Source: an uncultured Clostridia bacterium
GTDB taxonomy: Bacteria > Bacillota > Clostridia > TANB77 > CAG-508
DNA length: 64,000 nt
Assembly (NCBI GenBank): GCA_934121925.1
Contig: CAKOVK010000003.1
Location: 6,118-70,117, forward strand
Direction of reading: 5' to 3'
The stretch's first letter is position 1. Every line of letters begins with the position of its first letter. The notes below the pieces were generated by a model. That model was not told the origin of the DNA. It did no database searches and saw only the letters and a list, made by a program, of their open reading frames with translations. The position numbers and the translations under genes are program-made. This document shows, piece after piece, positions 1,879-47,607 of this stretch.

Positions 1879-2029
1879 TTTTTCTCCTTTTGAGGCAATT
1901 TAGTAAAACGAATTAAAATTAGTAGATTGCGCATTTTCTGAGGCAATAAAGCCGGAAACGCACGCTGTACGTTGGGGATTTTATCGCTAATAGAAAATGT
2001 TCAAGGTACTAATTTTCAATCATTTTTTC

Positions 2030-4954
2030 TTATTGTTTTACTTGTTCCATTATATACGCCTCAATAATATCTCCCTCTTTAATATCATTAAAGTCTTCTA
2101 TTTGAATTCCGCACTCAAATCCTTTTGTAACTTCTTTCGCATCATCTTTCATTCTCTTTAATGAAATTAATTTGCCATCATGTATTACAACATTATCTCT
2201 TAAGACTCTTACTCCTGCATTTCTTGCAACTTTTCCATCTGTTACATAGCATCCTGCAATTGTTCCAACATTAGATATTTTAAATATTTGTCTTACTTCT
2301 GCGTTTCCTATTATTGTTTCTTTAAATACTGGATCTAACATTCCCTTCATTGCAGCTTCCACATCCTCTATTGCATTATAGATTACTGAGTATGTTTTTA
2401 TTTCTACTTCTGATTTTTCTGCCATATCTTTTGCTAAAGCTTCTGGTCTTACATTAAATCCTATGATTATTGCATTTGATACACTTGCAAGTGTTACATC
2501 ACTTTCTGTAATTGCACCAACATTTGCGTGAATTACTTTAACTTCTACTTCATCATTAGACAATTTTTCTAGTGCTTGTTTTACTGCTTCTACAGAACCT
2601 TGAACATCTGCTTTTACTATTAAGTTTAATTGTTTTAAGTTTCCTTTTTCTATTTGGCTAAATAGGTCATCTAAAGTAACTTTTGTTGTTGCATTTAGAG
2701 CTTTATCTCTAGCTTGACGTTTTCTTCTTTCCATCAAGTGTTTTGCAGTTTTTTCATCTTTAACTTCGTAGAATGTGTCTCCTGCTTCTGGAACTGATGT
2801 TAAACCTGTTATTTCTACTGGTGTTGAAGGACCTGCTTTTTTAACTCTATGTCCCTTATCATCTGTCATTGTTCTTATTCTACCTATAACAGAACCTACT
2901 AAGATAGTATCTCCAACATCTAATGTACCACGTTGTACAAGCATTGTTGCAACTGGTCCTTTTGATTTATCTAGTTTTGCTTCTATTACAACACCTTTTG
3001 CTTGTTTATTTGGATTTGCTTTTAATTCTTTCATATCTGCAACTAGAAGTACCATTTCTAGTAAGTTATCTATATTTATTTTTTTCTTTGCAGAAATTGG
3101 AACAAAGATTGTATCTCCACCCCATTCTTCTGGTACTAATTCATATTCAGCAAGCTCTTGTTTTACTTTATCTGGGTTTGCACCTTCTACATCTATTTTA
3201 TTTATTGCAACAATAATTGGTATTCCAGCTGCTTTTGCATGGTTTATTGCTTCTACTGTTTGTGGCATAACACCATCATTTGCAGCAACAACTAGTATTG
3301 CTATATCTGTTATTTGAGCTCCTCTTGCTCTCATTGCTGTAAATGCTTCATGTCCTGGTGTGTCTAAGAATGTAATTTCTCTTCCATTTATTTCAACTTT
3401 ATAAGCACCTATTGCTTGTGTAATTCCTCCTGCTTCTCCTTCTATTACATTTGTAGATCTTACAGCATCTAATAAAGAAGTTTTACCATGGTCAACGTGT
3501 CCCATAACAACAATTACTGGTGGCCTTGGTTTTAATTCATCTTCTTTGTCTTCACTCTCATCAAATAAGATATCTTCATCTGTAACTACTTCTTTTTTAT
3601 GTGCAGTAACACCAAATTCTCCTGCTATCAAAAATGCTGTATCAAAATCCACTTCGTTGTTTATTGTAGCTAGAATTCCATATCCTAATAATTTCTTTAT
3701 TATTTCCCCACTTGTCTTTTTAAGTTCTGTACTTAAATCTTTTACGCTTATGCTCTCTGGAATTGTTATATCTGTTAGTTCAAATATTTTTTGTTTTACT
3801 CTATTTTCATCTTGATTGATTTTCTTTTTGCTTCTTCTTCCTCTTGTTGTTGTTAAATCGTAATAATCAAGCATTGATCCTTCATCAAACATATTTGATA
3901 ATCTATTTTCTTGTTTTAAGTCTTTTAATTTATGGCTACTTATTTCATCAAAGTTTCCTTTTCTTGCTTTAGAAGATTTTTTATTAGTTCTTTCCTCATA
4001 TCTATTATTTTTTTGTTTATCTATAGATTTATTTGCATATTCTCTTACATTTTCTTTTTCTACTACATCAGAAGCCATTATGTTTTTAATATTTTTTTCT
4101 ATACCTCTTTCATCAAGTGGTCTTCTTCCATAATTTCCTTGGTTTCTTTCTTGTCCTCTATTATTATTAAAAGGTCTGTTTCCATTTCCTTGATTGAAAG
4201 GTCTATTTCCATTATTACGATTATTATATGGCCTATTATTTTGCCCATTTTCTCTGTTAAATGGTCTATTTCCATTATTATTACGATTGTTGTTATTATA
4301 TGGTCTATTAAATCCATCTCTGTTAAATGGTCTATTATTATTGTTTTGATTATTATATGGTCTTGTTTGGGTAGTTACACTATTAACTCTTTTTACTGGT
4401 TCAGTTGTTTGTTGTGGTCTTTCAATTTTTTCTGGCTCTTTCTTTGTTTCAACTTCTGTAACAGTTTTTGGTTCTTCTACTTTTTGTTCTGGTTTTACTT
4501 CAGGTTCCTGCTTTGTTTCAGTTGCTTCTTTTTGCTTACTAGATGCTTTTGTACCAAACAATTCACTAACAGTAAGAGGTCTATTAGGTTTATTTCTATA
4601 CACTATATTATAGTCTTTTTTTCTTTCTCTTTCTATAAATCCTACATCTCTTGACTTTTTTCTTTCTTCCATTTTTGGCTCTGCTTTTTTGCTCTCATCA
4701 GTCACAATAACTTCTCTTCTTATTATTACAGGAGTTTCTTTTTTTTCTTTAACTTCTTTTTTTAACCCTGAAAATTTTGTTTCCAATTTTTTTGCTTCTT
4801 CTTCGCTTACACTGCTCATATGTGTTTTTACTTCCATTCCCAATTCTATTGCTTTTTCTAAAACCTCTTTGCTATTTACTCCTAATTTTTTTGCTATTTC
4901 GTGTATTTTTATTTTACCCAATAGCTTCACCCCCATTTTTTGTTTTTGTACCAA
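2030..4954 (-). CDS. infB: translation initiation factor IF-2
   Basis: G domain motifs [20 protein letters not shown] and NKID, with IF-2 C-terminal domains. An SD-like GGGGGTGA precedes an in-frame TTG at 4921 (then [13 protein letters not shown]), so the true start may be 4921 rather than 4954. Confidence 0.95.
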
Positions 4955-8139: not shown

Positions 8140-9231
8140 TTATACATTAAATTTAAATAATACTATATCTCCTTCTTGCATTATATATTCTTTTCCTTCA
8201 GATCTAATCAGTCCTTTTTCTCTTGCTGCATTCATTGAGCCTTCTTTTATTAAATCATCATAAGAAACTATTTCTGCTTTTATAAATCCTCTTTGTATGT
8301 CTGAATGTATTTTTCCTGCAGCAACTGGGGCTTTTGTTCCTTTCTTTATTGTCCAAGCTCTTACTTCTGGTTCTCCAGCTGTTAAGAATGACATTAAGCC
8401 CAAGACTGAATAACTTTCCCTTATGACTCTATCTAGTCCAGATTCTTTTAGTCCTAATGCTTCTAGCATTTCTTTTTTATCTGCTTCTTCTAGGCTTGTT
8501 AATTCTTCTTCAATTTTTGCACAAAGTGGAATTGCTATGCTGTTCTCATTTTTAACGTATTCCTTAACTTTTTTTACATTTTCATCATTTTCTGCATCTG
8601 ATAGTTGCTCTTCAGATACATTACATATGTATAAAATAGGTTTTGCTGTAAGAAGCATTGCATCCTTTAATATTAATTTTTCATCATCATTAAGGTCCAA
8701 TGTTCTTGCAGGCTTTTCTTCTTCTAAATGTTTTTTTATCTTTTCTAGGCAATCAATTTCTTCTTGATATTTTTTATCTGCTTTTAAATTTTTCTTTGCT
8801 TTTTCTAATCTTTTTTCTACTGTTTCTATATCTGCCAATATTAACTCTAAGTTGATTGTTTCTATGTCTCTAATTGGATTTATACTTCCATCTACATGTA
8901 CAATATTAGGATCTTCAAAGCATCTTACAACTTGTGCTATCGCATCTACTTCTCTAATATGTGCTAAGAATTTATTTCCTAAACCTTCCCCTTTACTTGC
9001 TCCTTTTACAAGTCCAGCAATATCAACAAATTCTACAATTGCATGAGTTATTTTTTGTGTGTTATACATTTTTCCTAAGACTTCAAGTCTTTCATCTGGA
9101 ACAGGTACAACACCTACATTTGGCTCTATTGTACAGAATGGATAGTTTGCGCACTCTGCTCCTGCATTTGTTATACTGTTAAACATTGTACTTTTACCTA
9201 CATTTGGTAGTCCTACTATTCCTATTTTCAT
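8140..9231 (-). CDS. ychF: redox-regulated ribosome-binding ATPase YchF
   Basis: 363 aa. MKIGIVGLPNVGKSTMFN P-loop, with the YchF coiled-coil insert and C-terminal TGS-like domain. Confidence 0.95.
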   Translation of the reverse strand: MKIGIVGLPNVGKSTMFNSITNAGAECANYPFCTIEPNVGVVPVPDERLEVLGKMYNTQKITHAIVEFVDIAGLVKGASKGEGLGNKFLAHIREVDAIAQVVRCFEDPNIVHVDGSINPIRDIETINLELILADIETVEKRLEKAKKNLKADKKYQEEIDCLEKIKKHLEEEKPARTLDLNDDEKLILKDAMLLTAKPILYICNVSEEQLSDAENDENVKKVKEYVKNENSIAIPLCAKIEEELTSLEEADKKEMLEALGLKESGLDRVIRESYSVLGLMSFLTAGEPEVRAWTIKKGTKAPVAAGKIHSDIQRGFIKAEIVSYDDLIKEGSMNAAREKGLIRSEGKEYIMQEGDIVLFKFNV

Positions 9232-9274
9232 TTTAATCCCTCTTCATATTTTGATTTTTGGAGTATAATTTTTT

Positions 9275-9350
9275 TGGAGCTTCCAACCAGAATCGAACTG
9301 GTGACCTCTTGCTTACCACGCAAGCGCTCTACCTACTGAGCTATAGAAGC
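9275..9350 (-). tRNA. tRNA-Thr (anticodon GGU), CCA encoded
   Basis: Minus strand GCTTCTATAGCTCAGTAGGTAGAGCGCTTGCGTGGTAAGCAAGAGGTCACCAGTTCGATTCTGGTTGGAAGCTCCA. It has a 7-bp acceptor stem and an anticodon stem CTTGC/GCAAG with loop GTGGTAA (U33 then GGT). The T loop contains GTTCGATTC. Confidence 0.9.
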
Positions 9351-9354
9351 ATAT
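9313..9354. repeat. attL core (42 bp; tRNA-Thr nt 1-38 plus 4 nt upstream)
   Basis: TTACCACGCAAGCGCTCTACCTACTGAGCTATAGAAGCATAT is repeated at 47566..47607 with one mismatch (9325 C versus 47578 T). Confidence 0.85.
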
Positions 9355-9487
9355 TTCCAGTTTTTATTGATATTTCAGTGGTTATAGGCTTTTTGTTTTT
9401 AAAATATTTTAGTCTATATTGTCTGTTTTGACTACGTTTTCTATCGTGTTCGTAGTCAAATCGTAGTCAAAACAGTATGCAAATAAA

Positions 9488-9625
9488 TCACAAGTTTTCA
9501 TTGTCTAGCAAACCTAAAATATAAACTTTAATAAGTATACTATAAATACCTTCTATTTGCAACAACTCTTCATCTGTAAAAATATTTTTGTTGTTTTTGA
9601 TTCTTTCTATTACTAATTTTTCCAT
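9488..9625 (-). CDS. hypothetical small protein (45 aa)
   Basis: ATG preceded by AGGAGAAAAAATAAA. Translates MEKLVIERIKNNKNIFTDEELLQIEGIYSILIKVYILGLLDNENL. Below the ORF-track length cut-off. Confidence 0.3.
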   Translation of the reverse strand: MEKLVIERIKNNKNIFTDEELLQIEGIYSILIKVYILGLLDNENL

Positions 9626-9687
9626 TTTATTTTTTCTCCTTATCAGAGAAACGCGTTTCTTAATCTAGTTAAATTATATTTACATTT

Positions 9688-9756
9688 TTCGACAAAGTCA
9701 AGAAAAAGCGTTCGACAAAATATTACTCTCACAAGGATTTTGAGAAATTCGACAAA
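9688..9756 (+). promoter_or_regulatory. three direct TTCGACAAA repeats upstream of the XRE-Spo0E-like gene (putative operators)
   Basis: TTCGACAAA at 9688, 9711 and 9748. Related ATTCGACA copies lie at 10291..10297 (inverted) and 11711..11717. Confidence 0.35.
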
Positions 9757-9873
9757 ATAAAATTGGCTTTTTGCAATGGTTACAGAAGTTCAATATGTCG
9801 CTACCAGCGACACGTAGAAATAAAAAAATAATTGTATTAAAATATGGACATAATAATTTTTAGAGGTAATTTT

Positions 9874-10197
9874 ATGTTTGTATTCGTAATTAAAAATATT
9901 AGATTAAAAAAATCTTTGACTATATATCAATTAAGTAAAATGACAAATATTGCTCGAACATATTTAGTTGAATTAGAGAACAATAAAAAATTTAATCCTT
10001 CTCTTAAAACTATGTATAAGATAGCAAATGCTCTTGAGGTTAAAGTTGATGATTTGTTTTACTCTGAATTAGATATAGAAAACTTAAAAGAAGAAATGTA
10101 TCGAAAGATAGATAAATACGGAAGAAATTCAAAAGAAGTTTTAGAAGTTTCACAAGTTATTGATTTATTAATTAATATTAAAATGAATAAAGACTAG
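9874..10197 (+). CDS. XRE-family HTH protein fused to a Spo0E-like C-terminal domain
   Basis: Start ATG 9874 follows AGAGG (the track ORF begins at 9844). HTH region LTIYQLSKMTNIARTYLVELENNKK. The C-terminus IENLKEEMYRKIDKYGRNSKEVLEVSQVIDLLI matches the Spo0E-family pattern (..SxEvLxxSQxlDxLI). Confidence 0.65.
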   Translation: MFVFVIKNIRLKKSLTIYQLSKMTNIARTYLVELENNKKFNPSLKTMYKIANALEVKVDDLFYSELDIENLKEEMYRKIDKYGRNSKEVLEVSQVIDLLINIKMNKD

Positions 10198-10214
10198 CCT
10201 CTCTCAGCTAGTCT
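10191..10214 (+). terminator. terminator after the XRE-Spo0E-like gene
   Basis: AGACTAGC-ctctctca-GCTAGTCT hairpin followed by TTGCTGTTTT. Confidence 0.5.
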
Positions 10215-10316
10215 TTGCTGTTTTCCTACAGCCCCCACAGTATTTATTTCTAAATACTTTATTATTATAGCATATCGATTTTGAAAAATGTGTCGAATTG
10301 TGACAAAAAACTAGCT

Positions 10317-10733
10317 TTAATTGCTAGTTTTTTCATTATCCTCTATTAGCTTATTTACATTTATAGCAGGTAAAATTAATGGCGGTACATTAGCGCTCGC
10401 AGTATATGTAGAAACAATTGCTCTTATATATGGAAATAGTATTGCTATTGCATTAGGTTCAAAATTAATATTTTTTTCATTATTTTCAACTGTAAAATAT
10501 CCTGTTAATACTACTTTCATTTCAAATGGATAATTATTTTTTTCTGCTTCTTTAAAAATTGTTGTCATTAGTTTTACTTCTATATTGTTCTCTGTTTTTT
10601 TTACATCTTTCTCTATATTAAATATTATTGACATCTTTTCATCTTTTTTTATAAAATTTTCATTATTTTTAAAACTAATCTCATCTACTACATATTGGTT
10701 AAATCTTAATATACTTACATATTCTTGCTCCAT
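10317..10733 (-). CDS. SecB-like chaperone
   Basis: 138 aa. LRFNQYVVDEISF, FEMKVVLTGYFTV and AILFPYIRAIVSTYTASANVPPLILPAINV align with E. coli SecB ([55 protein letters not shown]). Confidence 0.75.
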   Translation of the reverse strand: MEQEYVSILRFNQYVVDEISFKNNENFIKKDEKMSIIFNIEKDVKKTENNIEVKLMTTIFKEAEKNNYPFEMKVVLTGYFTVENNEKNINFEPNAIAILFPYIRAIVSTYTASANVPPLILPAINVNKLIEDNEKTSN

Positions 10734-10753
10734 TTTTTCCTCCTATGAATAGC

Positions 10754-10981
10754 TTATCCAACTTTTAAATATGTATCATCTGTAAATGTATTCATAACAT
10801 CCACAGAAAAATATTGATTGGTTAAAACATATTCCTTTTTTTCTTCTTTTTCTAAAAACAAGTTATAGTTTCTTTTAGTATATATCTTGTCATATTCTTT
10901 ACAATCCTTTTTAAATTCTTCACTTGTTATATTTTTAGCAATCTCTCTGATTTCTTTCAATAGATTTTCAAAATTATTCAT
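10754..10981 (-). CDS. small hypothetical protein (75 aa), candidate antitoxin of a TAC-like module
   Basis: Its SD AGGAGG lies inside the end of the upstream gene, with ATG 1 nt after that gene's TGA. The C-terminus is aromatic-rich (YVLTNQYFSVDVMNTFTDDTYLKVG). Confidence 0.5.
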   Translation of the reverse strand: MNNFENLLKEIREIAKNITSEEFKKDCKEYDKIYTKRNYNLFLEKEEKKEYVLTNQYFSVDVMNTFTDDTYLKVG

Positions 10982-10982
10982 C

Positions 10983-11654
10983 TCAAATCCTCCTTATAAT
11001 TCTTTCGCTATTTGTTCTGTTTATATGTATATGTTCAAAAAAATGCTTTATTCTACTTGTGTCATTGTAAACTTGATTGTGTATAATATTTTTTACTCTC
11101 TTGACACATATTTGAGTTTGAATATATTTTTCGAAGTTTTTATTAGATCTAATTTCATTCTTTTTTATTTCTTTTCTATAAGATGCAACTAATATATCAA
11201 AATTTTCAAAAAATCCTCTTTTTTGGATCATATAAATCCAAAATACATCATCTTTCTTTTGGGCTTCTTCAAGGTCTTCTTTGTTTAAATTTGACTTTAC
11301 TATTGTCTGAAACTCCTCAAACAATATTGTTCCTTCTGGAGAAGTTAAATCTAACATTTTGCTCTTTTCTATAAATATTTCGGCTTTAAAAATAGTTTTA
11401 TTTCTTATAATATTATTCCATATTGCTTTTTTTGAAAAAGAATGTATGTGTATATAATTCCATTCAACTGCATAATATAAGCTCTTCCAAAAGTAAACTC
11501 CTTTACCTAGCCATTGTTCTTCATCCTTGCATTTATTTAAATCATACCCAAACTTAATAATACTTTCTTCATTGCTTTTATTAGTAGCGTGATATCCTTC
11601 TATAATTTCTTGGTCCATTGCTGCTCCCATATTATATTTTTCTTTTTTACACAT
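10983..11654 (-). CDS. DUF3990-like protein (possible ADP-ribosyltransferase-like fold), candidate toxin
   Basis: 223 aa. GYHATN, LGKGVYFW, FDILVASY and TQICVKRV recall the DUF3990 pattern (YHGS, FGxGFY, YDiV.G, QiCF). The start may be the ATG at 11618, preceded by GGGAG. Confidence 0.45.
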   Translation of the reverse strand: MCKKEKYNMGAAMDQEIIEGYHATNKSNEESIIKFGYDLNKCKDEEQWLGKGVYFWKSLYYAVEWNYIHIHSFSKKAIWNNIIRNKTIFKAEIFIEKSKMLDLTSPEGTILFEEFQTIVKSNLNKEDLEEAQKKDDVFWIYMIQKRGFFENFDILVASYRKEIKKNEIRSNKNFEKYIQTQICVKRVKNIIHNQVYNDTSRIKHFFEHIHINRTNSERIIRRI

Positions 11655-11840
11655 TTTATACCAGGAATTTCAACAATACAAGAATTTTTCATCGCAGTTT
11701 TTTTACATTATTCGACATTATTATAATGTATTAATGTTACAGTCATATTGCTATTGTTTTACATTTATATATCATATATTATATCATTATTATCAATTTA
11801 TGTAAAGTTTTCAGATTTTATAGAATTAAATTAATTAAGA

Positions 11841-11872
11841 AGAATAAGGAATAGAAAATTATTCCTTATTCT
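11841..11872. terminator. terminator closing the late (lysis) operon
   Basis: AGAATAAGGAAT / ATTCCTTATTCT 12-bp perfect stem, located downstream of the endolysin stop. Confidence 0.65.
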
Positions 11873-11982
11873 AAAGATTCAAAAATTATTGAAATTAAGC
11901 CAAAAATAGACCTTTCAAAATCGCTTTTAAGCCTTTTTTATTTTCCAGGAATATACTTATATGCCTTGGTTTTTGGGTGTTT

Positions 11983-12861
11983 TTAATATTTTGAAACTAA
12001 TTTGCAATAATCTAAACACACCCATCCACTTGGAGTCTTTGCCCAATTATTTTTTATTTCATACGTATCAAATCTTGTTCCATTAATATATGTTTTTACA
12101 ATTTTATAATTGGTACTAGCTCCGCTTCTAACATTTAATCCTGATTTAGTATTTACTACATACTTTCCTAAAGCATATCTTGAAGAGTTTTGTACTTCAC
12201 TATTTTCTTTATTAGTATAGTCTAAACAAATCCATCCAGCACCAGATTTTAATTTTCCCCAGTTCCCTTGTGTTTCTATTATAGTATATGTTCCTTTATC
12301 TCTAATACAACCTACTATATTATAATTAGTACCTGCTCCTGCTCTTATATTTAAAGCATTTGCTGTCACTTTAACTAAATAACCTTCTGTTTTATTTTCG
12401 ATAGGTTTGTTTTCAGTAGATTTAACAGTAGCATTTGCAATTTCTTCAAAAGGATAGTTCTTTCCAGGACAAGCTGTTGCATTTACGTCTCTATGCCTTT
12501 GAACTTTAGTAATACCATATTTATTTTTTAAGTATGCAACTAATTCTTTTAACGCTTGTTTTTGTACATCTCCCATTGTTTCATTTTCAAAGTTGCCTTC
12601 AGCACAAATTCCAATACTATCTGTATTAGATCCATAAGCATGTGCTCCGACAGCCTCTTCTCTTCTTCCTCTATATATAGCCCCATCTTTTCTTACAAAG
12701 AAATGATATCCAATGCATGTCCAGCCTTTGTTTTTATGCCATCTATCTACATCATCTGCTGAGCAATTTGACACTGCAGCATGATGTAATATAATTCTAT
12801 TAGTTGTATTTCTATTACTTAATCCTCCATTCAATGAGTAAGTCCTTTCAATTATATTCAT
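11983..12861 (-). CDS. endolysin: N-acetylmuramoyl-L-alanine amidase (Amidase_2/PGRP) with two SH3-type wall-binding repeats
   Basis: HHAAV, GYHFFVRKDG, AHAYGSNTDSIGI and ATACPG amidase motifs. Two repeats follow, of the form LNIRAGAGTNYNIVG...W.KL..GAGWICLDY. Confidence 0.9.
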   Translation of the reverse strand: MNIIERTYSLNGGLSNRNTTNRIILHHAAVSNCSADDVDRWHKNKGWTCIGYHFFVRKDGAIYRGRREEAVGAHAYGSNTDSIGICAEGNFENETMGDVQKQALKELVAYLKNKYGITKVQRHRDVNATACPGKNYPFEEIANATVKSTENKPIENKTEGYLVKVTANALNIRAGAGTNYNIVGCIRDKGTYTIIETQGNWGKLKSGAGWICLDYTNKENSEVQNSSRYALGKYVVNTKSGLNVRSGASTNYKIVKTYINGTRFDTYEIKNNWAKTPSGWVCLDYCKLVSKY

Positions 12862-45574: not shown

Positions 45575-45964
45575 ATGAATATTATGGATAATATATTAGG
45601 AAAAAGAATTGAATTAGAAAGAACTCGTTTAGGATTAAATCAAATGGAACTGGCAAAAAAAATGAATCTCTCTTCTAGTGCTTCTATTTCGCAATATGAA
45701 AGTGGTGATAGAGTTCCAAGCGATGATATAAAATTAAAAATGTGTGAGCTTTTTAATTGTAGTTTAGATTATCTTATGGGAAAATCAGATACACGCAATC
45801 CAGAATTAAATAGCGAAGATATATTAGATTTAGCAAAAGTAGGATTTACAAAGGAGAATTATAATCCTCCTACTGAAAAACAAAAAGAGCAAATTAGAAC
45901 TATTATTGAAACTATTTTACAAGATAATAAAAAGGATAATAAAAAAGATGATTCAAACAAGTAA
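45575..45964 (+). CDS. CI-like XRE-family repressor
   Basis: HTH LGLNQMELAKKMNLSSSASISQYESGDRVP. The start is possibly ATG 45584, after AAGGA. Confidence 0.75.
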   Translation: MNIMDNILGKRIELERTRLGLNQMELAKKMNLSSSASISQYESGDRVPSDDIKLKMCELFNCSLDYLMGKSDTRNPELNSEDILDLAKVGFTKENYNPPTEKQKEQIRTIIETILQDNKKDNKKDDSNK

Positions 45965-46364
45965 ATTATATGAGTTAGCTGAAAAAGAAAATATTAAAGT
46001 TTATAACTATGACATATCAGATGTTTCTGGTATGTTTGTTAATATTGAGAATATTAACGCCATAACTTTGAATAAAAATTTAACATTCTATCAAGAAAAA
46101 TCTACTTTAGCTGAAGAACTAGGTCATTATTATTACGATGCTACATACCCTGTTTGTTGTTCAGATTTACAATTAATATCTAAACAAGAATATCGTGCTA
46201 GAAAATGGGCATATAATGTTCTAATTCCTGTCGAGGATTTAGTTTCTGCTATAAAAAAAGGTTTGGATAATACAGATGTCCTTTCAGATTATTTTGAAGT
46301 TCCTAGTCGATTTATGAGAGAATGTATCAATTATTACATAGAAAGAGGTGTTCTTTGTGCCTAA
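45948..46364 (+). CDS. ImmA/IrrE-like metallopeptidase-domain protein (variant motif EELGH)
   Basis: STLAEELGHYYYD...EYRARKWAYNVLIP resembles the ImmA pattern (HExxH...E..AN.FA..LLmP), but the first His is Glu. The likely start is ATG 45948. Confidence 0.6.
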   Translation: MIQTSKLYELAEKENIKVYNYDISDVSGMFVNIENINAITLNKNLTFYQEKSTLAEELGHYYYDATYPVCCSDLQLISKQEYRARKWAYNVLIPVEDLVSAIKKGLDNTDVLSDYFEVPSRFMRECINYYIERGVLCA

Positions 46365-47472
46365 ACAGAAATATACAAAAAGAAAAGATGGCAGATATGC
46401 AACTACCTTTCATGGTAAGCCTGTCTATGGAAAAACCTCTAAAGAATTAGAAGATAAAATAAATGAATTGAATTATTTCTACAATACGGGGAAGCCTATT
46501 GGGAATGATAAGCTTTCCTTTAAAGAGTGGGCTGAAAAATGGTACGATTTAAATATGAAAACTAAAGAAAAGAATACTCAAAATCTGAATCGTACTCTTT
46601 TAGATTGTCATATTTACCCTAAAATAGGACTTATTAGCATTAAAAACTTAAAAAAATATAATGTAGAAAATCTAATAAAGAATATGGAACTTGAAGGGAT
46701 TAAAGTTACTGCTAACAAATCTTTAGCATTAATAAAAAGAATATTACAAGATGCAGTTGATAATGATATTGTTTCCAAAAATGTTGCAAGTAATATTAAA
46801 TGTATTAAAATTGAAAAAGAACCTAAAAAACCTTTATCTGTTTATGAAGATAAAATATTTTTACAAGTTGCTCAAGAGCATAAAGATGGTTGTTTTATGA
46901 TGTTGTTAAGATATTGCGGACTTCGTAGAGAGGAAGCTGTACCTTTAGTTGTAAATGATATTGATTTAGATAATAAGAAATTATATATTAACAAGGCTGT
47001 TTATTTTGGCAATAATCAATCAGAAATTAAATCTACAAAGAATAAAAAGTCAAGGGTAGTAACTATACCAGATATACTTGTTCCTTTCTTAAAATCAAAA
47101 ATAGAAGGTCGTAAAGGTACTGATTTAATATTTACTAAAAAAACCAGTAATGGCATGTTATCTTTATCATCTTTAAGACGTTCTTTAGAAAGTTTTTTAT
47201 ATCATTGTAACCTATTACATGAAAAAATGCAGAAAGAATTAGATAAAGAGTTCGTATTAACTGATGACAATAAAATAAGTTTTACATTTCATCAATTAAG
47301 GCATTCATATTGTACTATGCTTTATTACGCAGATGTTAAAATAAAAAAAGCACAAGAGCTAATGGGTCATTCTAGTGCTGATATGGTATATGATATTTAT
47401 ACTCATCTTGATGAAGAAAGAGAAAACGCAGAAGATTTGATTAATACATATATATCTAATAAATATGTTTAA
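46357..47472 (+). CDS. int: tyrosine recombinase (phage integrase)
   Basis: LRYCGLRREE, HQLRHSYCT and GHSSADMVYDIYTHL form the R-H-R-Y catalytic set. The GTG at 46357 after GAGGTG is the likely start (the track ORF starts at 46348). Confidence 0.9.
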   Translation: MPKQKYTKRKDGRYATTFHGKPVYGKTSKELEDKINELNYFYNTGKPIGNDKLSFKEWAEKWYDLNMKTKEKNTQNLNRTLLDCHIYPKIGLISIKNLKKYNVENLIKNMELEGIKVTANKSLALIKRILQDAVDNDIVSKNVASNIKCIKIEKEPKKPLSVYEDKIFLQVAQEHKDGCFMMLLRYCGLRREEAVPLVVNDIDLDNKKLYINKAVYFGNNQSEIKSTKNKKSRVVTIPDILVPFLKSKIEGRKGTDLIFTKKTSNGMLSLSSLRRSLESFLYHCNLLHEKMQKELDKEFVLTDDNKISFTFHQLRHSYCTMLYYADVKIKKAQELMGHSSADMVYDIYTHLDEERENAEDLINTYISNKYV

Positions 47473-47565: not shown

Positions 47566-47607
47566 TTACCACGCAAGTGCTCTACCTACTGAGCTATAGA
47601 AGCATAT
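47566..47607. repeat. attR core (partial 5' tRNA-Thr copy)
   Basis: TTACCACGCAAGTGCTCTACCTACTGAGCTATAGAAGCATAT. It covers only tRNA nt 1-38 and abuts the sigH stop region. Confidence 0.85.

What the first reader, a model, noticed from the sequence alone, without database searches (positions are those of the whole stretch)
10317..11654. Prophage-borne three-gene module: DUF3990-like protein, small protein and SecB-like chaperone (candidate new TAC-type toxin-antitoxin-chaperone or defence system)
Three co-directional genes form their own unit between the late-operon terminator (11841..11872) and attL, the classic moron/cargo position. Gene 1 (223 aa) carries GYHATN...LGKGVYFW...FDILVASY...TQICV. 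From memory this resembles DUF3990 and an H-Y-type NAD-binding (ART-like) arrangement; that is inference. Its stop overlaps the SD of gene 2 (75 aa, aromatic-rich C-terminus). Twenty nt later comes gene 3, a clear SecB homologue. Firmicutes lack housekeeping SecB. Stand-alone SecB-like genes are best known from TAC systems (HigBA, MqsRA and HicAB types). In those systems the chaperone stabilises an antitoxin through a C-terminal chaperone-addiction tail, and the HigBA type has the order toxin-antitoxin-chaperone, as here. A DUF3990-like partner would be a new toxin class for TAC. Its location in a prophage suggests abortive infection, superinfection exclusion or prophage addiction.
Basis: partly seen in the sequence, partly recalled or inferred. 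Interest (0 to 1): 0.78.

Follow-up and report, generated by a model that had tools for sequence, protein, structure and literature searches.

The report
Prophage CmdTAC-type toxin–antitoxin–chaperone module
The three genes are real and form a toxin–antitoxin–chaperone cassette at the end of a Clostridia prophage, but it is a divergent member of the already characterised CmdTAC (PD-T4-9) anti-phage system, not a new kind of system.

Summary
The three co-directional minus-strand genes exist as described. They have their own promoter-like site and sit between the endolysin terminator and the att/tRNA-Thr end of a ~38-kb prophage. Gene 1's true start is M13, giving 211 aa (10983..11618).

- **Gene 1** matches PADLOC PD-T4-9_A (CmdT). 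It folds as an ADP-ribosyltransferase with an invariant H…G-x-G-x-Y-F…Q-x-C-V. It aligns collinearly with E. coli CmdT, and its invariant Tyr falls on the experimentally essential Y41.
- **Gene 3** matches PD-T4-9_C (4.7e-21), and its family HMM matches E. coli CmdC (6e-18).
- **Gene 2** has no detectable sequence homology to CmdA. It has the same size (75 vs 77 aa), position and predicted architecture: two helices plus a disordered aromatic tail. It is under purifying selection.

The triplet is conserved in every testable close relative, often just after prophage lysis genes.

"New toxin class" and "DUF3990-like" are not: ART-toxin TACs were described in 2022–2024, including prophage-borne ones and Gram-positive homologues. 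The real differences are strong divergence, no Pfam/NCBIfam coverage, and an antitoxin ending in Val-Gly instead of the ClpXP Ala-Ala degron. Verdict: new member of a known kind, modest interest.

The parts
11778..11806 (-). Promoter-like site of the module (TTTACA - 17 nt - TG-TATAAT), about 160 nt upstream of the gene 1 start
   Evidence: Best sigma-70-type match in 9300..12100 (11/12, extended -10), located between the endolysin terminator and gene 1. This is a consensus match only and is not shown to be functional.
10983..11618 (-). cmdT-like toxin gene, 211 aa (the ORF is open back to 11654). Predicted ADP-ribosyltransferase with H10, G38-x-G40-x-Y42-F43 and Q169-I-C171-V, in M13 numbering (= H22, Y54, Q181 in 223-aa numbering)
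   Evidence: PADLOC PD-T4-9_A 1.3e-6. AF2 pLDDT 87, with Foldseek top hits diphtheria toxin, NatT, PARP13/1, tankyrase, ParT and ART-PolyVal. 17 of 22 close homologues hit Pfam PARP weakly. H, GxG and Y are invariant in 124/124 representatives. hhalign to E. coli CmdT gives prob 91%, E 9e-7; the family HMM vs E. coli CmdT gives E 7e-10, collinear over residues 16-170. Start at M13.
10754..10981 (-). cmdA-like antitoxin candidate, 75 aa: two N-terminal helices plus a disordered, aromatic-rich C-terminal tail (Y51, Y57, F58, F66, Y71) ending ...DTYLKVG
   Evidence: Translationally coupled to gene 1. A small ORF (68-90 aa) is found between T and C in most relatives of the clade. dN/dS 0.17-0.40. 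AF2 gives helices 2-17 and 21-47 (pLDDT ~72) and a tail 48-75 with pLDDT <50. No hit to PD-T4-9_B and no significant similarity to E. coli CmdA.
10317..10733 (-). cmdC-like SecB-type TAC chaperone, 138 aa
   Evidence: Pfam SecB 4.4e-11, above the gathering score. PADLOC PD-T4-9_C 4.7e-21. Far below all NCBIfam housekeeping-SecB cut-offs. The HMM of its family matches E. coli CmdC at 6e-18 over residues 5-119 of 129.
11841..11872 (-). Intrinsic-terminator-like hairpin ending the upstream lysis/late operon; it insulates the module
   Evidence: 13-bp stem followed by a T-rich tail.
10305..10333 (.). A6-CTAGC / GCTAG-T6 inverted repeat straddling the gene 3 stop codon; candidate bidirectional terminator
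   Evidence: Read directly from the sequence. The scan tool did not call it.
10188..10217 (.). Bidirectional hairpin about 100 nt downstream of gene 3, shared with the convergent HTH gene; tool-called terminator on both strands
   Evidence: 11-bp stem, called on both strands.
9326..9354 (.). Prophage attachment-site repeat next to the module, within tRNA-Thr 9275..9350 (context: it defines the cargo position)
   Evidence: 29-bp exact repeat, with its partner copy at 47579..47607 beside the integrase gene 46348..47472.

Best explanation
The locus is a divergent, prophage-borne member of the CmdTAC (PD-T4-9) family of toxin-antitoxin-chaperone anti-phage systems.

It is transcribed from its own promoter as one translationally coupled operon. 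Gene 1 encodes a CmdT-type, diphtheria-toxin/PARP-like ADP-ribosyltransferase. Gene 2 encodes a small labile antitoxin whose two N-terminal helices hold and neutralise the toxin, and whose disordered aromatic tail makes it dependent on the chaperone. Gene 3 encodes a SecB-like chaperone, probably a tetramer, that binds that tail and keeps the antitoxin stable.

By analogy with E. coli CmdTAC: when a superinfecting phage makes large amounts of a newly synthesised structural protein, the chaperone is titrated away and the antitoxin is lost by proteolysis or aggregation. The freed toxin then uses NAD+ to ADP-ribosylate single-stranded RNA (mRNA), stopping translation and aborting the infection. 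This protects the lysogen population and the resident prophage.

- **Shown here:** gene structure, homology of T and C to the characterised proteins, ART fold and catalytic motif, conserved synteny, purifying selection, prophage cargo position.
- **Inferred:** complex formation, trigger, RNA target, abortive-infection phenotype.
For: 1. PADLOC: gene 1 = PD-T4-9_A (1.3e-6) and gene 3 = PD-T4-9_C (4.7e-21).
2. The locus meets the discoverers' published homologue rules. One is a CmdT homologue + any second downstream ORF + a SecB-like third gene (PMC9519451 methods). The other is CmdT and CmdC HMM hits within two genes, with CmdA excluded because it is too variable (PMC11618068 methods).
3. Direct comparison used an E. 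coli cmdTAC recovered through the authors' primer. CmdT vs the window's family gave hhalign prob 91%, E 9e-7 and HMM E 7e-10 over residues 16-170, including WLxxGxYFW, lDL and QxCV. The experimentally essential Y41 aligns with the invariant Tyr. CmdC vs the gene 3 family HMM gave 6e-18.
4. The model is confident (pLDDT 87). Structural neighbours are ARTs: diphtheria toxin, NatT, PARPs, ParT, ART-PolyVal, as the paper reports for CmdT.
5. H/Y/GxG are invariant in 124/124 representatives and the Gln of QxCV is present in 111/124.
6. Gene 2 is 75 aa vs 77 aa for E. coli CmdA, with two N-terminal helices and a disordered tail, as described for CmdA.
7. T - small ORF - SecB-like is present in every close relative with enough downstream DNA.
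8. dN/dS is 0.11-0.40 for all three genes.
9. The same cassette position, after the lysis genes at a prophage end, is seen in L004-L006, L082-L084 and Latilactobacillus phage TMW 1.1386 P1. E. coli CmdTACs are also prophage-encoded.
Against: - Similarity of gene 1 to the CmdT models is modest: 26 bits to PADLOC, and hhalign covers only the N-terminal half.
- Foldseek PDB E-values are weak (best ART hit 7e-3, TM ~0.35-0.45).
- Gene 2 has no detectable sequence homology to CmdA: PD-T4-9_B gives no hit, hhalign prob 0.4%, shuffle z 0.3-1.3.
- Gene 2 and its closest orthologues end in [V/A]-Gly. They lack the Ala-Ala ClpXP degron that is functionally required in E. coli CmdA.
- The gene 2 model rests on only 5 sequences.
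- No complex prediction could be run.
- Target, trigger and phenotype are extrapolated from E. coli across a very large phylogenetic distance.
Confidence: 0.78

Rival explanations
1. It has the same family and architecture, but its main biological role is prophage addiction or stabilisation (post-segregational killing of cells that lose the prophage), not defence against other phages.
For: Labile-antitoxin TA logic inherently gives addiction. The module sits at the very end of the prophage next to att. No phage-challenge data exist for this clade.
Against: The same cassette occurs outside obvious prophages: L081 lies between pgi and yceG-like genes, and L001 lies after rho. It also occurs behind unrelated lysis cassettes (amidase_2, CHAP, amidase_3, M15), which is typical of mobile defence cargo. 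Both characterised CmdTACs act as Abi defence.
Confidence: 0.08
2. It is a CmdT-like TAC whose toxin has a different substrate from E. coli CmdT (for example tRNA/rRNA, DNA or a protein), and/or whose antitoxin is released without ClpXP. That would make it a mechanistic variant rather than a plain orthologue.
For: - Only ~20-29% identity to E. coli CmdT over the alignable part.
- ART relatives span DNA (DarT), tRNA (Tpt1-like), protein (PARP, DT, ParT) and NAD-targeting (NatT, RES) enzymes among the structural hits.
- The antitoxin C-terminus is [V/A]-Gly in the whole subclade, not Ala-Ala.
- E. coli NT1F31 HigA is a precedent for a ClpXP-independent TAC antitoxin.
Against: The catalytic core and the aromatic-rich surface motifs (WLGxGxYFW, YYAxxW) are shared with CmdT family members. 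Nothing in the sequence positively indicates another substrate.
Confidence: 0.12
3. One reading: a categorically new TAC/defence system built on a DUF3990-family toxin.
For: Pfam and NCBIfam give no family for genes 1 and 2. 5 of 124 distant relatives hit DUF3990 weakly.
Against: Gene 1 gives no DUF3990 hit at E<=1. The family matches PD-T4-9_A in 74 of 124 representatives and aligns with E. coli CmdT. ART-toxin TACs are published.
Confidence: 0.02

Closest known systems
CmdTAC / PD-T4-9 of E. coli ECOR22 (Vassallo et al. 2022, PMC9519451; Vassallo, Doering & Laub 2024, PMC11618068) and of E. coli O112ab:H26 (Mets et al. 2024, bioRxiv 10.1101/2024.02.24.581848)
   Same: - Gene order T-A-C with tight coupling.
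- Toxin is an H-Y-[E/D/Q] ART of ~190-210 aa, homologous by HMM and profile comparison, with the catalytic Tyr aligned.
- Small middle protein (75 vs 77 aa in the ECOR22 type) with two N-terminal helices and a disordered tail.
- SecB-like third gene, homologous at 6e-18.
- Carried as cargo in a prophage variable region.
   Different: - Host is a low-GC (28.8%) Clostridia bacterium rather than E. coli, and the carrier is a tRNA-Thr-integrated prophage rather than a P2-like one.
- The toxin is ~20 aa longer, with a C-terminal helix and basic tail, and only ~20-29% identical.
- The antitoxin has no detectable sequence similarity and ends Val-Gly instead of Leu-Ala-Ala.
- Nothing has been tested experimentally.
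Classical TAC systems (M. tuberculosis HigBA1-SecB-TA Rv1955-57; MqsRAC; HicAB-type; E. coli NT1F31 HigBAC)
   Same: A SecB-like chaperone dedicated to an antitoxin through a disordered, aromatic-containing C-terminal ChAD tail. HigBAC has the same T-A-C order. An anti-phage role has been shown for MqsRAC and HigBAC.
   Different: Their toxins are RNases (HigB, MqsR, HicA), and their antitoxins are recognisable HTH/Xre-type proteins carrying an appended ChAD. Here the toxin is an ART, and the antitoxin is a minimal two-helix protein.
Pfam DUF3990 (PF13151) and other ART toxin families (PARP PF00644, DarT, ART-PolyVal, Tox-ART-HYD1, Exotoxin A)
   Same: Same ART superfamily fold, with the N-terminal 'Y-H-G/A-T' and 'G-x-Y-F' NAD-binding motifs.
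   Different: Gene 1 does not hit DUF3990 at all. It gives only sub-threshold PARP similarity (17 bits against a cut-off of 26.7). None of these families is defined by a SecB-like partner.
Housekeeping SecB of Proteobacteria
   Same: Same Pfam domain (PF02556). The conserved C-terminal NAxAIxFPYxR...LP motif is shared.
   Different: Scores of 25-38 bits fall far below the NCBIfam equivalog cut-offs of 103-277 bits. The gene is encoded in a prophage operon. According to the TAC literature, housekeeping SecB is a Pseudomonadota chaperone.

Membership tests
CmdTAC (PD-T4-9) | First gene is a CmdT homologue by HMM | tested here: met
   PADLOC PDLC04069 1.3e-6 and PDLC04068 9.8e-4. 74 of 124 family representatives hit PD-T4-9_A. 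hhalign of E. coli CmdT vs A1 gives prob 91.4%, E 9e-7. The A2 HMM vs E. coli CmdT gives E 7e-10 over residues 16-170.
CmdTAC (PD-T4-9) | H-Y-[E/D/Q] diphtheria-toxin-type catalytic motif, including the Tyr equivalent to the essential Y41 | tested here: met
   H10 and Y42 (M13 numbering) are invariant in 124/124 and Q169 is present in 111/124. E. coli 'GYYFW' aligns with 'GVYFW'. Y41 numbering was fixed using the authors' GTG-CAG primer. All three residues lie on predicted beta-strands.
CmdTAC (PD-T4-9) | Toxin has an ADP-ribosyltransferase fold | tested here: met
   AF2 pLDDT 87 / pTM 0.82. Foldseek hits are diphtheria toxin 1dtp, NatT, PARP13, PARP1, tankyrase, ParT and Tpt1, plus viral ART-PolyVal, DarT and PARP-like proteins with E down to 1.7e-5. 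PDB E-values are weak (>=1e-3).
CmdTAC (PD-T4-9) | A second small ORF lies directly downstream of T (the discoverers' rule; sequence similarity is not required) | tested here: met
   75-aa ORF with overlapping SD/stop coupling. It is conserved in synteny and has dN/dS of 0.17-0.40.
CmdTAC (PD-T4-9) | Middle protein is homologous in sequence to CmdA | tested here: not met
   No PD-T4-9_B hit at E<=1 for gene 2 or for 10 other middle ORFs. hhalign gives prob 0.4% and shuffle z is 0.3-1.3. The authors state that CmdA is too variable to use for calling, so this is not a defining feature.
CmdTAC (PD-T4-9) | Antitoxin architecture: a pair of N-terminal helices plus an unstructured C-terminal (ChAD-like) tail with aromatic residues | tested here: met
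   AF2 gives H2-17 and H21-47 (pLDDT ~72), with residues 48-75 at pLDDT <50. Y51, Y57, F58, F66 and Y71 are invariant among the 5 closest sequences. The alignment is shallow, so confidence is moderate.
CmdTAC (PD-T4-9) | Antitoxin ends in an Ala-Ala (ssrA-like) ClpXP degron | tested here: not met
   Gene 2 and its closest orthologues (three shown, four) end in [V/A]-G. More distant middle ORFs end in AA, VA or IA. E. coli CmdA ends LDLAA, and an AA->DD change abolishes its function.
CmdTAC (PD-T4-9) | [quoted passage not shown] | tested here: met
   PD-T4-9_C 4.7e-21. Pfam SecB scores 43 bits against a cut-off of 26. The family HMM vs E. coli CmdC gives 6e-18.
CmdTAC (PD-T4-9) | T:A:C complex forms in a 1:1:4 ratio, and the chaperone stabilises the antitoxin | not testable with these tools
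No multimer tool is available.
CmdTAC (PD-T4-9) | T+A is toxic and rescued by C; GA sites in ssRNA are ADP-ribosylated on N6-adenine; Abi defence is triggered by a phage capsid protein | not testable with these tools
   These are experimental properties and nothing here addresses them.
Pfam DUF3990 (PF13151) | Significant match to the PF13151 HMM | tested here: not met
   No hit at E<=1 for gene 1. 0 of 22 close homologues hit it. 5 of 124 distant representatives do, with a best E of 2.6e-4.
Housekeeping SecB (NCBIfam TIGR00809 / PRK05751) | Score above the equivalog cut-off | tested here: not met
   37.9 bits against 143, and 37.2 bits against 102.8.
HigBAC / MqsRAC / HicAB-type TAC | Toxin and antitoxin homologous to HigB/HigA, MqsR/MqsA or HicA/HicB | tested here: not met
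   No such Pfam, PADLOC or NCBIfam hits for genes 1 and 2. Only the chaperone principle is shared.

The most novel reading that the evidence does not exclude
This gut-Clostridia subclade may be a mechanistic variant of CmdTAC. Its minimal antitoxin has replaced the ClpXP Ala-Ala degron with a conserved C-terminal [V/A]-Gly. Toxin release after chaperone titration would then work through a different protease or through aggregation alone. The highly diverged ART might also have a substrate or sequence specificity different from GA sites in mRNA. In addition, the slot between the endolysin and a conserved HTH-Spo0E-like gene would be a cassette-exchange hotspot in sporeformer prophages.
Probability: 0.2. 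Interest if true: 0.45.

Novelty: new member of a known kind. Interest (0 to 1): 0.3.

Why it matters
It extends the experimentally defined CmdTAC system to prophages of uncultured gut Clostridia. There it is invisible to Pfam and NCBIfam: T and A get no family, and the E. coli counterparts are themselves annotated 'hypothetical' and 'protein-export chaperone SecB'.

For annotation, the locus should be labelled a CmdTAC-type anti-phage TAC, with the gene 1 start moved to M13.

For biology, the clade offers a compact natural variant: a 75-aa antitoxin with a Val-Gly terminus. It could be used to ask which features of TAC antitoxins are really required for chaperone addiction and release, and whether RNA ADP-ribosylation as an antiviral effector holds in Firmicutes. 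It does not open a new class of system.

Tried and rejected
1. **PDB sequence search with gene 1:** only a spurious glucose-6-phosphate isomerase hit at E 0.54.
2. **DNA and protein searches of gene 1 against sequenced phages:** no match.
I fell back to gene 2 with 4 database homologues.
4. **Route to E. coli CmdTAC through the 'Enterobacteriaceae' MAG hit L021:** dead end. The contig is high-GC, has no SecB-like gene and has no E. coli match. I solved it instead with the authors' primer `pBAD-cmdTA-F`.
5. **Apparent collinearity between gene 2 and E. coli CmdA:** rejected after shuffle tests (z 0.3-1.3) and hhalign (prob 0.4%). Only the short C-terminal motif F-[S/T]-D-D-T-x-L is shared, and that can be chance.
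6. **PD-T4-9_B HMM on 10 further middle ORFs:** no hits.
7. **Rfam scan of 9200..12000:** only the tRNA.
8. **DUF3990 membership:** rejected.
9. **Host species:** could not be named. The closest genomes are uncultured Clostridia MAGs.
Full report
**1. Observation**

The three ORFs are present on the minus strand: 10983..11654 (223 aa), 10754..10981 (75 aa) and 10317..10733 (138 aa).

The junctions are as described. The last codons of gene 1 (…ATA AGG AGG ATT TGA) supply the Shine-Dalgarno for gene 2, whose ATG lies 1 nt after the stop. Gene 3 follows a 20-nt spacer containing AGGAGGA.

One correction concerns the start of gene 1. All 21 homologues aligned with it begin at the residue equivalent to M13 (MDQEII…), which is preceded by GGGAG-N5. 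The CDS is therefore most likely 10983..11618 (211 aa).

A terminator-like hairpin ends the upstream lysis genes at 11872..11841. The best promoter-like site of the region (TTTACA-17-TG-TATAAT) lies at 11806..11778, between that terminator and gene 1. Hairpins follow gene 3 at 10305..10333 (read from the sequence) and at 10216..10189.

The prophage context is confirmed:
- A 29-bp exact repeat at 9326..9354 / 47579..47607 overlaps tRNA-Thr (9275..9350).
- A tyrosine integrase lies at 46348..47472, with an HTH repressor and an ImmA/IrrE peptidase beside it.
- An amidase_2-SH3 endolysin lies at 11983..12861, immediately upstream of the module.

All three genes show purifying selection against four orthologous loci (dN/dS 0.11–0.40).

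**2. What the genes are**

*Family scans.* Pfam gives nothing for genes 1 and 2, and SecB (PF02556, 43 bits against a cut-off of 26) for gene 3. PADLOC is decisive: gene 1 matches PD-T4-9_A (1.3e-6) and gene 3 matches PD-T4-9_C (4.7e-21). PD-T4-9 is the three-gene system that Vassallo et al. isolated from E. coli ECOR22 and renamed CmdTAC (PMC9519451).

*The characterised system.* Its mechanism was worked out in 2024 (PMC11618068):
- CmdT is a diphtheria-toxin-family ADP-ribosyltransferase with an H-Y-[E/D/Q] triad, and Y41 is essential.
- It modifies N6 of adenine in GA dinucleotides of single-stranded RNA and blocks translation.
- CmdA is a small antitoxin with two N-terminal helices and an unstructured tail ending LAA, degraded by ClpP.
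- An independent study described a prophage-encoded CmdTAC and the role of aromatic ChAD residues (bioRxiv 10.1101/2024.02.24.581848).

*Gene 1.*
- The word-indexed search found only 24 unnamed relatives of 187–219 aa.
- An exhaustive profile search found 1,627 clusters at E ≤ 1e-3, but only 18 at ≤ 1e-30. The window therefore belongs to a small subfamily of a large family.
- Of 124 representatives, 74 match PD-T4-9_A, 43 match Pfam PARP, and only 5 weakly match DUF3990.
- H, G-x-G and Y are invariant in all 124, and the Gln and Cys of Q-x-C-V are present in 111 and 122.
- The AlphaFold model is confident (pLDDT 87, pTM 0.82).
- Its structural neighbours are almost exclusively ARTs: diphtheria toxin, NatT, PARP13/1/10/12, tankyrase, ParT and Tpt1 in the PDB, and ART-PolyVal, DarT and PARP-like proteins among viral models. 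The PDB E-values are weak.

*Direct comparison with E. coli.*
- I recovered a genuine E. coli cmdTAC by searching with the authors' primer `pBAD-cmdTA-F`, which spans the native T–A junction.
- It lies in a P2-like prophage of strain N2250, with T of 192 aa, A of 77 aa and C of 129 aa. RefSeq annotates these as hypothetical, hypothetical and 'protein-export chaperone SecB'.
- E. coli CmdT aligns to the window's family by hhalign (prob 91%, E 9e-7).
- It also aligns collinearly over residues 16–170 to the family HMM (E 7e-10), including WLxxGxYFW, lDL and QxCV.
- In the authors' numbering (start GTG-CAG), Y41 is the second Y of GYYFW. It aligns with the invariant Tyr of GVYFW here.
- E. coli CmdC matches the HMM of the gene 3 family at 6e-18 over almost its full length.

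*Gene 2.* This is the weak point.
- There is no PD-T4-9_B hit, hhalign to E. coli CmdA gives prob 0.4%, and alignment scores are no better than shuffles.
- The discoverers report exactly this variability. They define homologues as CmdT + any second ORF + SecB-like, or by CmdT and CmdC hits alone.
- What gene 2 does share is size (75 vs 77 aa), position, translational coupling and predicted architecture. It has helices 2–17 and 21–47, then a low-confidence tail 48–75 carrying five invariant aromatic residues.
- There is one clear difference. The window's gene 2 and its closest orthologues end in [V/A]-Gly, whereas more distant middle ORFs and E. coli CmdA end in Ala-Ala, Val-Ala or Ile-Ala.

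**3. Co-occurrence**

In every relative of the window's clade with enough downstream DNA, a SecB-like gene follows T after a gap of 117–274 nt. In all but L013, where only a 17-aa ORF fits the 117-nt gap, that gap holds a 68–90-aa ORF.

The cassette sits behind four unrelated endolysin types, and also in non-prophage contexts (L001, L081), as expected for mobile cargo.

The inducible Latilactobacillus phage TMW 1.1386 P1 carries an even more divergent ART-like gene (hhalign prob 95%), a 118-aa ORF and a PD-T4-9_C-type gene between its amidase and integrase. All three are annotated as hypothetical.

Across the wider family only 26 of 79 loci have a SecB-like partner. Many of the others have a small ORF right after T.

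**4. Mechanism**

The best-supported model is the CmdTAC mechanism, transferred to this locus:
1. T, A and C4 form a complex.
2. A superinfecting phage's nascent structural protein titrates the chaperone.
3. The antitoxin is lost.
4. The ART ADP-ribosylates mRNA, translation stops and the infection aborts.

Shown here: homology of T and C, the catalytic motif, the fold, synteny, selection, operon structure and cargo position. Inferred: complex formation, trigger, substrate and phenotype. The Val-Gly terminus suggests that release may not use ClpXP. A ClpXP-independent TAC antitoxin has a precedent in E. coli NT1F31 HigA.

**5. Novelty**

ART-toxin TACs, prophage carriage and Gram-positive homologues are all published. 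The DUF3990 label is not supported.

I rate it a new, divergent member of a known kind. It has modest interest for annotation, and as a compact natural variant for dissecting chaperone addiction.

Noticed in passing
window 9844..10197 (+), probable true start 9874; L004 7360..7683; L082 6566..6909: An HTH_3 + Spo0E-like fusion gene lies convergent to the module. It is 75% identical to its counterpart beside the cassette in L004, although the adjacent T proteins are only ~33% identical. This suggests a conserved prophage-end flank next to a cassette-exchange slot. A prophage-borne Spo0E-like domain could also bear on host sporulation control.
   Followed up: partly
window 9326..9354 and 47579..47607; tRNA-Thr 9275..9350: The ~38-kb prophage is bounded by a 29-bp exact repeat within tRNA-Thr. 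An integrase, an HTH repressor and an ImmA/IrrE-type peptidase sit at the far end (45575..47472).
   Followed up: partly
L087 (E. coli N2250, NZ_CP189474.1) 2947..4160: In RefSeq the experimentally characterised type of cmdTAC is annotated 'hypothetical, hypothetical, protein-export chaperone SecB'. NCBIfam has no CmdT or CmdA model, so these systems are systematically mis- or un-annotated.
   Followed up: partly
L085 (Latilactobacillus phage TMW 1.1386 P1, OP455936.1) 1948..3390: An isolated, inducible temperate phage carries an unannotated ART-like / 118-aa / SecB-like (PD-T4-9_C 2.5e-13) cassette between its amidase and integrase. Its ART has a ~25-residue insertion between the H and G-x-Y motifs, and PADLOC does not recognise it.
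   Followed up: partly
L086 (Streptococcus satellite phage Javan245, MK448382.1) 2019..2743: A phage satellite encodes a 96-aa ORF overlapping a PD-T4-9_C-type SecB-like gene (6.6e-14), with no recognisable toxin gene beside them.
   Followed up: no
loci L015-L080 (for example L016, L039, L049, L054, L078): 53 of 79 CmdT-like ART genes, mostly from Cyanobacteria, Verrucomicrobia, Planctomycetes and Proteobacteria, have no SecB-like neighbour. Many are instead followed by a recurrent ~55-75-aa ORF, which suggests chaperone-less two-gene CmdT-type TA pairs.
   Followed up: partly
window 10754..10981 C-terminus; L087 3535..3768 C-terminus: Gene 2 and E. coli CmdA share a short motif, F-[S/T]-D-D-T-x-L, at the same distance from the C-terminus (NTFTDDTYLKVG vs DFFSDDTELDLAA). 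It is not statistically significant, but it is a candidate chaperone-binding SLiM.
   Followed up: partly
window 10317..11654: Module GC is 24.6%, against 28.8% for both the prophage and the chromosomal flanks. This fits horizontally exchanged cargo.
   Followed up: no
model of gene 1 vs PDB 9k3a_B: The top Foldseek PDB hit is a 1071-aa chain of the cyanophage A4 pre-ejectosome. Together with the viral ART-PolyVal hits, this hints that the ejected protein contains an ART-like domain.
   Followed up: no
L001 10860..11585: In the non-prophage context of the closest MAG relative, an Anti-Pycsar Apyc1-like metallo-beta-lactamase gene and an integrase lie a few kb from the cassette. This suggests a mobile island that mixes defence and counter-defence genes.
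   Followed up: no
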